Positions 3,001 to 6,000 of a stretch of 64,000 bases of DNA are shown piece by piece. Position numbers: made by a program. Positions within the stretch are counted from its first letter, which is position 1, and each line of letters starts with the position of its first letter. Source of the DNA: Ginglymostoma cirratum (Eukaryota); the NCBI GenBank assembly GCA_024137785.1, contig JAHRHZ010000250.1:726515-790514 (forward strand). The letters run 5' to 3'.

Positions 3001-6000
3001 TCCGTTTCACAAAACAGCGAGGTTGAGCGGCATTTTGACAGATTTGTAATTGGATCGAACCCGGAACAATGGCGAAAGGGGTCAGCCGCCCATTCTATTT
3101 TGTATTACTGACTTGCGTGTCCGATCTAATTTTCGGTCAAATACAATATGCGATCCCCGAAGAGATGGAGCGCGGTGCTTTTGTTGGCAATATCGCGGAG
3201 GATTTGGGCCTAAGCATTGGAGAGATGTCATTTCGCAAATTTCGGCTCGTCTCTGATGACGGAATACAGGTATTTAAGTTGAACATGGGGAATGGTATTT
3301 TAGTTGTGAATGAGAGAATCGACAGGGATACTCTCTGTGGGCAAAGTGCGACTTGTTCTGTTTCTCAGGACATAGCGGTGGAAAATCCAATGGCAATGCA
3401 TCGTGTCGACGTGGAGATATTAGATGTAAATGATAACTCGCCCAGATTTCCTAAAATGAGATATACGTTAGAAGTATCTGAAGTAACTGCAGCAGGAGCT
3501 CTTTTCCCAATGGAGAAAGCGCACGATGCAGACGTAGGTACAAATGCGGTGAGTAATTATGAAATCAGCACAAATAAGCACTTTGGCCTGAAGACTCGGA
3601 GCAGAAGCGATGGCAGTAAAATTGCAGAGCTGGTGTTAGAAAACCCGTTAGACCGCGAGCAACACTCCAGTTTTCATCTGACACTGACGGCCATTGACGG
3701 CGGGACTCCTCGTAGATCTGGTACTGCAGAAATAATCATCACTGTACTGGATGTAAATGATAATGCCCCAGTATTTGATCATCAGATATATAGAATTAAC
3801 TTATTGGAGAATTTGCCTGAAGGTTCATTAATTACGACAATAAACGCTATTGATTTCGACCAGGGAACAAATGGCGAGATAAAGTACTATTTAAGCCATC
3901 ATGTTTCTCACAGTGTGAGTGAATTGTTCGTTTTGAACCCCGCAACTGGACAGATCACAGTTCAAGGATCACTGGACTATGAAGAAAAGAAAGTTTATCA
4001 ACTTGATGTAGAAGCTGTGGACAATGGTACGCCCGCATTAGTTGGGCGCGCCGAAGTTCTTGTTGAATTACTTGACGTTAATGATAATGCGCCGGAGATA
4101 AAAATAAACTCACTATCCATTGAGGTACGTGAAGATGCTGCAAGCGGTACTGTGATCGCTATAATAAATGCAATGGATCGTGATTCAGGAGAAAATGGAC
4201 AAGTGCACTGTCAGTTGCCACCAAATATCCCGTTTACGCTCCAAAAATCTTCAAACAAGCAATACAGTTTAGTGGTCAGCGATACGCTGAATCGCGAAAT
4301 CTCGCCTTTCTATAACATCTCCATTTCAGCCTGGGATACTGGGTCACCCACTCTTTCCACAAATAAAACTATCCACATTTCAATTTCTGATATAAATGAC
4401 AATGCACCACAATTTACACAGTCGTTATATAATGTGTTCCTGATGGAAAACAATGCTCCAGGTGCATCAATATTTACTGTTACCGCTTTAGACCCTGACT
4501 TGGGCAAGAATAGCGAGTTATCGTATTTCTTATTGGACGGCTTCATTCATGAAAGTTCTGCGACTGGTCACTTTAGTGTTAACTCGGAAAGCGGGCGTCT
4601 TTACGCGCTAAGCTCTTTTGATTATGAAATACAGAAGAATTTTCAGATCAAAGTTCATGCTCAGGATGGTGGAACTCCCTCACTGACCAGCACTACTCTC
4701 GTAAATGTTATTATCCTGGACCAAAACGACAACGCCCCAGTCATTGTATCACCTTCACATTACAACACTTCAATTGTGATTGTACCAAAATCTGCACATC
4801 CTGGATACTTGGTGACCAAAGTAATTGCTGCAGACGCAGATTCTGGGCAGAATGCAAGACTTTTCTATCAGCTCATAGAAGCTACTGATCACAGCAGTTT
4901 TAGTATTGGATTTACCTCTGGCGAAATTAGAACAAGTCGAAAGTTTAGGGAGCAAGATGCTCTGAGACAGACGATTGTTGTTTTGGTCAGGGACAATGGG
5001 CAGCCGAGCCTATCCAGTACAGTTTCAATTTTCTTTACAATCCAAGGTAACATTACTGAATATACCTTCGAACAAAAAAGCAAACCTCGAAATCCAGAAA
5101 TGTTTTCAGATTTAAATTTTCTATTGATCATTATTTTAGGATCAACTTCCTGTATATTTCTCTTCATAATAGTTTTTCTGGTCGTTGTGAAATGCAAACA
5201 AGACAGGAATACATGCTGTTACACGTCCAGAGTCAGTTGTTACAGGCAAAGGAATTCAGCCGATGCTTCTCATAGTCGAGCTGTCGCAAAAGCAAATTTA
5301 AATTATCTGGATTCTGCACAAACTCTGCCTATTCGGGAATCATATAATTACACTGTCTGTCTCTCACCGGAATCCTCGAAGAGCGAATTTTTGTTTTTAC
5401 AACCGTGTCACCCGACATTGCCTCTGGATGATATTAATATTCACGACACTGCGAGATAATGTAATATGTCAACGTGCACTGAAATTAATTTGTAGTTTGT
5501 ACAACTATGTATATCCAAGAAAAAAAAATTCAAAGTTAGATGTATTTGTTTTAAATGAAATGCTTGCACCTCCTATCTATTATTAGAAACAGACGGAAAT
5601 CTTGCAGATGCAGTATCTGGAATGCTACTTTGTGATTGCTATTAATATTAGAATAGACGCTGAGCTTTTCAGAGATTTAATCTCTTCAGTTTAAGTTCGG
5701 AACACTGCGATAACAAATGCGTCGCGACAAGCAGAGAACTTCTATGGAACATTTTATTTTCAGTTTACGTGTTATAGTTTGGAGACTGCTTGTCATGCAA
5801 TGAATCACATTGCTTCAACAAACTGCTTTCGGTACAGAATATTCATGGATAATTTGGATTCTTCAAATACATTGAGACAATTAACGCATGATTGGCGATT
5901 TAAAAGCCGGATTAAGTTTGTGGAGTATCCGAACAAGGGGCAGAAGTAAGCTATTCAACAGCTGAGGCCTTCCCCAGTATTTAACTCCGTCAGAGTTGAT

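What the first reader, a model, noticed from the sequence alone, without database searches (positions are those of the whole stretch)
5320..5480. The three cPcdh genes look like single-exon, constant-exon-independent (Pcdh-beta-like) genes in a shark
Seen: all three ORFs stay conserved up to a TAA at the same position (DDINI[H/R]DT[AR/EK/DR]*; also 28640-28790 and 51900-52050). No GTRAG-type donor is shared by the three between the TM and the stop. The weak GTGACA in paralogs 2 and 3 is ACGACA in paralog 1, and the GTAA after the stop is GCAA in paralog 2. Known: alpha and gamma variable exons end at a splice donor and join constant exons, whereas tetrapod Pcdh-beta genes are single-exon. Inference: this may be a beta-like subcluster in cartilaginous fish, either ancestral or convergent. 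Caveat: recent duplication or conversion could also explain the conserved tail.
Basis: partly seen in the sequence, partly recalled or inferred. Interest (0 to 1): 0.65.

Follow-up and report, generated by a model that had tools for sequence, protein, structure and literature searches.

The report
Shark epsilon-type protocadherin genes, constant-less
Three tandem shark protocadherin genes each appear to finish at their own stop codon instead of splicing to shared constant exons, but this gene type (protocadherin epsilon) was already recorded in the elephant shark, so the finding is real but ordinary.

Summary
The window has three + strand ORFs of 796, 796 and 795 aa, about 23.3 kb apart. Each ends ...DDINI[H/R]DTxx-TAA, and none has a credible splice donor between the transmembrane segment and the stop.

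Paralog dS is 0.29-0.41, intergenic identity is 67-73 %, and each paralog has its own closer ortholog in Stegostoma or Rhincodon.

The genes are not a new beta-like subcluster. In an 87-row tree they share one branch (SH-aLRT 100) with the elephant-shark proteins deposited as protocadherin epsilon8 and epsilon9 and with 42 of 42 chondrichthyan models of about 800 aa. The deposited epsilon proteins (801 and 827 aa) lack the constant-region domain; the deposited mu5 (966 aa) has it. All 32 database proteins sharing this tail are 790-828 aa.

Best reading: epsilon-type clustered protocadherins, one coding exon each, with their own promoter element and their own stop. They resemble beta in architecture only.

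No transcript data could be consulted, no shared poly(A) signal was found, and the 2008 elephant-shark paper was not readable here. Interest is low.

The parts
2759..2830 (+). Conserved promoter-proximal block of paralog 1. It holds a CGCT box followed by CCAAT (exact 16-mer at 2805-2820), 249-264 nt upstream of the ATG.
   Evidence: (alignment A3) shows a block of about 72 nt that is nearly invariant in all three paralogs. One search gives identity 0.80-0.84 here against 0.2-0.7 in the surrounding upstream sequence. One search finds the 16-mer exactly 3 times in 64 kb (0.01 expected), each time upstream of an ORF. Block ends are approximate.
3069..5459 (+). Paralog 1: complete single-exon ORF of 796 aa, with signal peptide, six cadherin repeats, a transmembrane segment, a variable cytoplasmic domain and an 18-residue tail. 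Stop TAA at 5457-5459.
   Evidence: Pfam finds Cadherin_2, five Cadherin repeats and Cadherin_C_2 at 681-778 (85 of 85 profile positions), and no Cadherin_tail. The nearest protein is a Stegostoma tigrinum model of 796 aa at 91 % identity.
5609..5798 (+). Conserved island 150-340 nt after the stop of paralog 1. It may be a short 3' UTR end: AATAGA here and in paralog 3 aligns with AATAAA in paralog 2.
   Evidence: One search gives identity 0.63-0.82, against 0.51-0.58 just before it. Searches show the AATAAA of paralog 2 at 28965 (+192) aligned to AGAATAGA in paralogs 1 and 3. The function is inferred only, and the coordinates are approximate.
26031..26102 (+). Conserved promoter-proximal block of paralog 2 (16-mer at 26077-26092).
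   Evidence: Block ends are approximate.
26383..28773 (+). Paralog 2: complete single-exon ORF of 796 aa. Stop TAA at 28771-28773.
   Evidence: The nearest protein is a Rhincodon typus model of 796 aa at 94 % identity.
49337..49408 (+). Conserved promoter-proximal block of paralog 3 (16-mer at 49383-49398).
   Evidence: Block ends are approximate.
49646..52033 (+). Paralog 3: complete single-exon ORF of 795 aa. Stop TAA at 52031-52033.
   Evidence: The nearest protein is a Rhincodon typus model of 796 aa at 91 % identity.

Best explanation
The window holds three tandem members of the protocadherin epsilon type of clustered protocadherins, in an orectolobiform shark close to Stegostoma and Rhincodon.

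Each gene has its own promoter-proximal CGCT/CCAAT element. Each has one coding exon of about 2.4 kb that encodes six cadherin repeats, a transmembrane segment and a short cytoplasmic domain. Each ends at its own stop codon, 18 residues after the FLFLK motif. The protein is therefore made without the shared constant cytoplasmic domain that alpha, gamma, mu and nu isoforms receive by splicing.

Shown: the ORFs, the domain content, the lack of a donor, the conserved stop position across the family, and the placement with the elephant-shark epsilon proteins.

Inferred: that transcripts end on their own poly(A) site. Also inferred, by analogy with mammalian beta protocadherins (established knowledge, not tested here), that the proteins act as homophilic recognition units and depend on constant-bearing isoforms in cis for intracellular signalling.
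For: Anatomy:
- Three intact ORFs carry Cadherin_2, five Cadherin repeats and a full Cadherin_C_2, and no Cadherin_tail.
- Selection: gene-wide dN/dS is 0.26-0.31 with dS 0.29-0.41.

No donor:
- No GT site reaches 7 of 9 consensus matches between the transmembrane segment and the stop.
- Paralog 1 has no GT in its last 16 codons.

The tail is translated and ends there:
- The PCHPTLPxDDIN tail is conserved in Heptranchias, Heterodontus, Cetorhinus, Mustelus and Scyliorhinus, with TLP also in Mobula, Pristis and Callorhinchus.
- 57 of 73 proteins of 780-830 aa end 18-20 residues after FLFLK. The rest end at 11-33 residues.
- 32 of 32 proteins found with the tail alone are 790-828 aa.

Family placement:
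- In an 87-row tree, one branch (SH-aLRT 100, length 0.18) holds the 3 window proteins, 4 C. milii epsilon-type proteins (epsilon8, epsilon9, B0YN57 and a RefSeq model), 42 of 42 chondrichthyan models of about 800 aa, and one unit of a fused Rhinoraja model.
- The mu5 group, a second chondrichthyan group that includes a model with a constant region, and all 21 bony-vertebrate rows lie outside it.

Same depositors, different treatment:
- Epsilon8 and epsilon9 are 827 and 801 aa without Cadherin_tail.
- Mu5 is 966 aa with Cadherin_tail at 831-956.
- The anole paper PMC2764143 (passages read) lists constant-exon sequences for alpha, gamma, delta, mu and nu only.

Own promoter: the 16-mer with CGCT and CCAAT occurs exactly three times, once upstream of each ORF.

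Conservation drops right after the stop.
Against: - No transcript data were available, so neither the absence of splicing nor the 3' end is observed directly.
- The three paralogs share no canonical poly(A) signal. Paralog 1 has no AATAAA or ATTAAA for 2.85 kb after the stop and paralog 3 has none for 1.69 kb. Only paralog 2 has AATAAA, at +192.
- One database model (Rhinoraja longicauda, P0301) runs from an epsilon-type unit, 19 residues after the motif, straight into a mu-type unit. At least one annotation pipeline therefore joined an epsilon tail to something downstream. It may be a prediction artefact.
- RefSeq models of about 800 aa could be ORF-based predictions rather than RNA-supported ones. 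Exon counts and RNA support were not visible.
- The window ends 12 kb after paralog 3, so I could not look at what lies downstream.
- The within-window dN/dS of the 18-codon tail rests on 5-9 substitutions per pair and is 1.1 for paralogs 2 and 3.
- The statement that epsilon lacks constant exons was not read in any paper; Yu et al. 2008 is not held.
Confidence: 0.8

Rival explanations
1. These are ordinary variable exons, as in alpha, gamma, mu and nu. Transcripts would be spliced from a weak or non-canonical donor upstream of the TAA to constant exons beyond the window, and the ORF tail would be intron read-through.
For: The window cannot show what lies downstream. No shared poly(A) signal was found. 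One Rhinoraja model joins an epsilon-type tail to a downstream unit. Weak sites of 5-6 of 9 exist.
Against: No GT reaches 7 of 9 between the transmembrane segment and the stop, and paralog 1 has none in its last 16 codons. The tail is conserved as protein across shark orders, and its end position is conserved in 57 of 73 family members; intron read-through would not give that. None of the 32 tail-sharing proteins is longer than 828 aa. Models outside the epsilon branch in the same databases do carry Cadherin_tail. No constant-exon-like sequence is in the window (best E 1.3).
Confidence: 0.08
2. The genes are true orthologues of the beta subcluster of coelacanth and tetrapods, so a constant-less subcluster would be ancestral to jawed vertebrates.
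For: The architecture is the same: a single coding exon of about 795 aa with no constant region. Automatic names such as 'protocadherin beta-15-like' are attached to one close Chiloscyllium homologue.
Against: Against solved EC1-4 structures, beta scores lowest among the clustered types: gammaC4 431 bits, alpha4 401, gammaA8 386, beta8 346, beta6 338. The genes sit on the elephant-shark epsilon branch, outside the clade of 16 of the 21 bony-vertebrate rows; the other 5 rows lie unresolved nearer the chondrichthyan groups. PMC2764143 (passage read) says epsilon has no orthologues in bony vertebrates. Automatic names for the same family also read protocadherin-10-like, alpha-C2-like and gamma-A7-like, so they carry no weight. 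No verified beta sequence could be put in the tree, so this rival is weakened but not excluded.
Confidence: 0.08
3. The conserved tail and stop are a by-product of very recent duplication or gene conversion, and say nothing about function.
For: DNA similarity continues past the stop. Identity between paralogs is mosaic along the ORF, for example 0.95-0.98 for paralogs 1 and 2 at 3514-3800.
Against: dS is 0.29-0.41 and intergenic identity is 67-73 %. Each paralog pairs with its own orthologue in Stegostoma or Rhincodon with support 100. The mosaic pattern recurs in the Stegostoma and Rhincodon paralog pairs. The same tail and stop position occur in family members only 55-60 % identical.
Confidence: 0.02

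Closest known systems
[quoted passage not shown] 2008, PNAS 105:3819; paper not readable here; deposited proteins B0YN63 epsilon8, B0YN64 epsilon9 and B0YN57)
   Same: Length is 57 % identical over 100 % of the query. Domain content is the same, with no Cadherin_tail. The cytoplasmic motif YxYxVCLSPESSKS-FLFLKP is shared, followed by a short TLP-containing tail and a stop. All sit on the same tree branch, SH-aLRT 100.
   Different: The elephant-shark tails are 24-32 residues after the motif instead of 18. The three window genes belong to one epsilon sublineage that has one sampled representative each in Heptranchias, Heterodontus, Cetorhinus, Mustelus and Scyliorhinus and one per Mobula species. 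This sublineage was multiplied in orectolobiform sharks. The position between the delta and mu subclusters could not be checked.
Protocadherin beta subcluster of coelacanth and tetrapods
   Same: These are single-coding-exon clustered protocadherins of about 795-800 aa, each with its own promoter, that lack the shared constant cytoplasmic domain. This is stated for beta in PMC2764143 and PMC2926608 (passages read).
   Different: There is no sign of orthology. Beta ectodomains give the lowest scores among the clustered types. The literature passage says epsilon has no bony-vertebrate orthologue. The likeness is architectural.
Elephant-shark protocadherin mu (mu5, B0YN81) and constant-bearing elasmobranch models outside the epsilon branch
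   Same: The variable part has the same plan and is 45-46 % identical over about 790 residues. They belong to the same gene cluster type.
   Different: In mu5 the sequence runs about 40 residues beyond its FMFV motif (the counterpart of FLFLK) before the part it shares with the Hypanus model begins (...EVGQLNTDW...). That shared part ends in a Lys-rich tail and includes Cadherin_tail at 831-956. The window genes stop 18 residues after the motif.

Membership tests
Clustered protocadherin (variable-exon type gene) | One exon of about 2.4 kb encodes a signal peptide, six cadherin repeats, a transmembrane segment and a short cytoplasmic segment | tested here: met
   The uninterrupted ORFs are 2388-2391 nt. 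Pfam finds Cadherin_2, five Cadherin repeats and Cadherin_C_2.
Clustered protocadherin (variable-exon type gene) | Tandem array in one orientation, each unit with its own promoter carrying a conserved CGCT-containing element | tested here: met
   Three units lie on the + strand about 23.3 kb apart. An exact 16-mer with CGCT and CCAAT lies 248-306 nt upstream of each ATG and nowhere else. PMC2926608 mentions that a CGCT element exists in mammalian and elephant-shark clusters (passage). Promoter activity itself was not tested.
Protocadherin epsilon (Chondrichthyes) | The variable region groups with the elephant-shark epsilon proteins and apart from other subclusters | tested here: met
   a branch with SH-aLRT 100 holds the window proteins with epsilon8, epsilon9 and B0YN57. 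Mu5 and all bony-vertebrate rows lie outside. Delta and named nu references were not available, and the tree is unrooted.
Protocadherin epsilon (Chondrichthyes) | The protein lacks a constant region (no constant exons) | tested here: inconclusive
   At sequence level there is no donor, no Cadherin_tail, and 32 of 32 tail-sharing proteins are 790-828 aa. No RNA data were available. That this feature defines epsilon is inferred from the deposited protein lengths, from the omission of epsilon, and from my recollection of the 2008 paper.
Protocadherin epsilon (Chondrichthyes) | Position in the cluster between the delta and mu subclusters | not testable with these tools
   The window holds only the three genes and no flanking shark sequence was available. 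That epsilon lies between delta and mu is itself recalled from the 2008 paper; no call shows it. The only hint is the Rhinoraja model, in which an epsilon-type unit is followed by a mu-type unit.
Protocadherin beta | Orthology to the coelacanth and tetrapod beta variable regions | tested here: inconclusive
   No verified beta sequence could be fetched for the tree. The PDB score ranking puts beta last among the clustered types. The literature passage says epsilon has no bony-vertebrate orthologue.
Constant-exon-spliced variable exons (alpha, gamma, mu, nu type) | A splice donor closes the variable exon after the short cytoplasmic segment | tested here: not met
   no site reaches 7 of 9 matches between the transmembrane segment and the stop. 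There is no strong GC or U12 donor. Paralog 1 has no GT in its last 16 codons. This is a consensus count, not a trained splice-site model.
Constant-exon-spliced variable exons (alpha, gamma, mu, nu type) | Protein products carry the shared constant domain (Pfam Cadherin_tail) | tested here: not met
   Cadherin_tail is absent from the 3 window proteins and from 3 elephant-shark epsilon proteins. It is present in mu5, a Hypanus model and a Scyliorhinus torazame model.

The most novel reading that the evidence does not exclude
Constant-less clustered protocadherins arose twice: epsilon in cartilaginous fishes and beta in lobe-finned vertebrates. The epsilon tail (PCHPTLP-x-D-I/L-N ... basic end) is recognisable from chimaera to rays and sharks and is held at a fixed length in most members. 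On this reading it is a self-contained cytoplasmic signal, for trafficking or partner binding, that stands in for the shared constant domain. The GTAA four bases after the stop in paralogs 1 and 3 would then be a relic of the ancestral donor.
Probability: 0.25. Interest if true: 0.45.

Novelty: new member of a known kind. Interest (0 to 1): 0.2.

Why it matters
The finding shows that the constant-less epsilon type recorded in the elephant shark is also present, intact and under purifying selection in an orectolobiform shark. The same stop position is kept across sharks and rays.

That has modest value for annotating shark genomes, where these genes carry misleading automatic names such as protocadherin-10-like, alpha-C2-like and beta-15-like. 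It also bears on whether protocadherins without a constant domain evolved once or twice.

It does not open a new question. The gene type is on record, and close orthologues are already in RefSeq.

Tried and rejected
- **Representative search.** The search of the 50 %-identity representative library returned only giant multi-cadherin proteins of 1300-8000 aa without names, so I did not use it.
- **Yu et al. 2008.** The paper could not be opened by PMC id or DOI.
- **Literature searches.** Four searches found no held paper that states outright whether epsilon has constant exons, and none on elasmobranch protocadherin clusters. Two shark genome papers only cite the 2008 paper. The passages found for 'elephant shark' in PMC8302217, PMC6339937 and PMC7811963 added nothing on epsilon.
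- **Supplementary tables.** The supplements of PMC2926608 could not be seen and may list elephant-shark elements.
- **Poly(A) signals.** A scan for a shared canonical poly(A) signal found none.
- **Tail dN/dS.** The within-window dN/dS of the 18-codon tail has too few sites to be informative.
- **RNA families.** Rfam gave 0 matches in the window.
- **Constant exons in the window.** A tblastn of the window with three chondrichthyan constant regions gave no hit below E 1.3. The variable part of mu5, used as a positive control, hit all three genes.
- **Tree with verified beta, delta and nu references.** Automatic '-like' names in the tree are not reliable subfamily labels.
- **Genome collection.** The genome-contig collection holds only bacteria and archaea, so I did not use it.
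- **Structure and complex prediction.** Neither was used, because no claim here rests on them.
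Full report
**What is there.** The 64-kb window has no N. It holds exactly three ORFs of at least 250 aa, all on the + strand: 3069-5459 (796 aa), 26383-28773 (796 aa) and 49646-52033 (795 aa). The proteins are 78-84 % identical to one another. Each carries Cadherin_2, five Cadherin repeats and a complete Cadherin_C_2 domain (residues 681-778). None carries Cadherin_tail, the Pfam domain of the shared constant region. 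All three end DDINI[H/R]DT plus two residues and TAA.

**Donor scan.** I scored every GT in the last 330 nt of each ORF, and 120 nt beyond, by matches to MAG|GTRAGT.
- No site reaches 7 of 9. The best reach 6 of 9, and no 6-of-9 site is shared by all three.
- The only sites shared by all three are ACN|GTYTGT at -102 (5-6 of 9), inside the conserved YxYTVCLSPE motif, and the TGT Cys codon at -50 (5 of 9 in paralogs 2 and 3, below 5 in paralog 1).
- Paralog 1 has no GT in its last 16 codons. No strong GC-type or U12-type donor is present.
- For scale, each whole ORF has 3-7 sites at 7 of 9. The one shared by all three (AAG|GTAAC, about 410 nt before the stop) lies before the transmembrane segment, which is not where alpha or gamma exons are spliced.
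- This is a consensus count, not a trained model, and no genuine donor from this genome was available as a positive control.

**Is the conserved tail only a recent copy?** No.
- A self-comparison shows that the whole units of about 23 kb are tandem duplicates. Intergenic identity is only 67-73 %.
- Synonymous divergence between paralogs is 0.29-0.41, with gene-wide dN/dS of 0.26-0.31.
- In the tree, paralog 1 pairs with a Stegostoma protein, paralog 2 with Rhincodon and Stegostoma proteins, and paralog 3 with a Rhincodon protein, each with support 100. The three genes are therefore older than the split of these genera.
- Identity along the units is 0.8-0.97 without gaps in the ORF. It falls to 0.51-0.58, with indels, at +55 to +150 after the stop. 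It rises again to 0.63-0.82 in an island at +150 to +340.
- The 18-codon tail alone has too few substitutions within the window to test selection.

**Comparative evidence for the stop.**
- A search with paralog 1 found many chondrichthyan proteins of 790-828 aa with full coverage. They come from Stegostoma, Rhincodon, Chiloscyllium, Cetorhinus, Heterodontus, Heptranchias, Mustelus, Scyliorhinus, Carcharodon, Pristiophorus, Mobula, Pristis and Callorhinchus.
- Of the 73 proteins of 780-830 aa in hand (3 of them from the window, one from an unnamed source), 57 end 18-20 residues after the FLFLK-type motif. The others end at 11 (6), 14 (2), 21 (2), 23 (1), 24 (3), 32 (1) and 33 (1) residues. In 63 of 73, a TLP-like triplet follows the motif.
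- The tail PCHPTLPLDDIN is nearly unchanged in Heptranchias, Heterodontus and Cetorhinus.
- A search scored on residues 716-796 alone returned 32 proteins. All are 790-828 aa; none has this tail followed by more sequence.
- Read-through into an intron would not keep both the peptide and its end point across paralogs that are only 55-60 % identical.

**Which family.**
- Three elephant-shark proteins from the 2008 deposit are 57 % identical over the full length: 'Protocadherin epsilon9' (B0YN64, 801 aa), 'epsilon8' (B0YN63, 827 aa) and B0YN57 (812 aa).
- 'Protocadherin mu5' (B0YN81), from the same deposit series, is 966 aa. It carries Cadherin_tail at 831-956. The three epsilon entries do not.
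- Two elasmobranch models outside the epsilon branch (Hypanus, Scyliorhinus torazame) also carry Cadherin_tail. The databases therefore do show constant regions where they exist.
- I cut 87 full variable units out of named proteins by HMM envelope and built a tree (IQ-TREE quick search, LG+G4, SH-aLRT only, unrooted).
- One branch with support 100 and length 0.18 holds the 3 window proteins, the 4 elephant-shark epsilon-type rows, 42 of 42 chondrichthyan models of about 800 aa, and unit 1 of a fused Rhinoraja model.
- The mu5 group (10 rows), a second chondrichthyan group that includes a model with a constant region (6 rows), and all 21 bony-vertebrate rows lie outside.
- Rows left out of the tree: proteins that gave no unit spanning profile positions 60-660 (for example the Takifugu, Crotalus, Enhydra, Echeneis and Maylandia models), and all unnamed proteins.

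**Literature.**
- PMC2764143 (passages read) says the elephant shark has delta, epsilon, mu and nu subclusters, and that epsilon, mu and nu have no orthologues in bony vertebrates. It lists constant-exon sequences for alpha, gamma, delta, mu and nu; epsilon and beta are absent from that list.
- PMC4978886 (passages) repeats the subcluster list.
- I recall that Yu et al. 2008 describe epsilon as lacking constant exons, as beta does. I could not open that paper, so this point rests on the deposited proteins and on the omission just cited.
- Four searches found no held paper on elasmobranch protocadherin clusters.

**Is it beta?** Only in architecture.
- Against solved ectodomain structures of equal span (EC1-4), the scores are gammaC4 431 bits, protocadherin-10 406, alpha4 401, gammaA8 386, beta8 346 and beta6 338.
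- No verified beta sequence could be placed in the tree, so orthology is weakened but not formally excluded.

**Promoters and 3' ends.**
- A block of about 72 nt is nearly invariant upstream of all three ORFs. Its core 16-mer, with CGCT followed by CCAAT, occurs exactly three times in the window, 248-306 nt before each ATG (0.01 expected by chance). PMC2926608 mentions a CGCT element in mammalian and elephant-shark clusters (passage).
- At the 3' end there is no shared canonical poly(A) signal. Paralog 2 has AATAAA at +192, inside the conserved island, where paralogs 1 and 3 read AATAGA. The next canonical signals are at +2853 in paralog 1 and +1694 in paralog 3. This leaves the transcript end open, and it is the weakest part of the single-exon reading.

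**Evidence that cuts the other way.**
- The Rhinoraja longicauda model P0301 (1657 aa) runs from an epsilon-type unit, 19 residues after its motif, through about 35 residues into the signal peptide of a mu-type unit. This may be a prediction artefact, or it may reflect a read-through transcript spliced near the usual stop position.
- In paralogs 1 and 3 a 6-of-9 GT site lies four bases after the stop, but it is GC in paralog 2.
- RefSeq models of about 800 aa may be ORF-driven; I could not see their RNA support.
- The window itself holds no constant-exon-like sequence (best E 1.3). With only 12 kb after the last gene, that says little.

**Spliced models.** Each gene is one contiguous ORF and was searched as such.

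**Verdict.** The genes are members of the protocadherin epsilon type already recorded in the elephant shark, with close orthologues already modelled in other sharks. The finding is sound but ordinary.

Noticed in passing
window 3514-3800, 4014-4200, 4214-4500, 4614-5000 (paralog 1 coordinates): Identity between the paralogs is mosaic. Paralogs 1 and 2 are 0.95-0.98 identical in two stretches, paralogs 1 and 3 are 0.91-0.94 in another, and paralogs 2 and 3 are 0.90-0.96 in a fourth. The Stegostoma and Rhincodon paralog pairs show the same pattern at protein level. It therefore reflects old conversion or uneven constraint, not recent events.
   Followed up: partly
window 5609-5798 and the matching stretches about +150 to +340 after the other two stops: A conserved non-coding island lies downstream of each stop (0.63-0.82 identity, against 0.51-0.58 just before it). 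It contains AATAAA in paralog 2 and AATAGA in paralogs 1 and 3. It may be a 3' UTR end or a regulatory element.
   Followed up: partly
window 36947-37668 and 39110-39882, with ORF 38553-38957 (+): Two pairs of inverted repeats of 181-249 nt at 86-92 % identity flank a stop-to-stop ORF. The ORF has a weak SCAN-like (retroviral capsid-like) match, E 9.6e-6, below the Pfam cut-off. This is probably a decayed transposable element between paralogs 2 and 3.
   Followed up: no
protein P0301 (Rhinoraja longicauda model), residues about 780-850: This database model fuses an epsilon-type unit to a mu-type unit. Many elasmobranch models of 1400-1900 aa are likewise two full variable units joined head to tail. 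This suggests either systematic mis-joining in automatic annotation of these clusters or real read-through transcripts.
   Followed up: partly
window 5047, 28361, 51624: A 7-of-9 donor-like site (AAG|GTAAC) is shared by all three ORFs just before the transmembrane segment, within the codons for QGN. If used, it would give a product without the membrane anchor. Nothing suggests that it is used.
   Followed up: no
one search hit list: Automatic names for this one family vary widely: protocadherin-10-like, alpha-C2-like, beta-15-like, gamma-A7-like and gamma-C3-like. They should not be read as subfamily assignments.
   Followed up: yes
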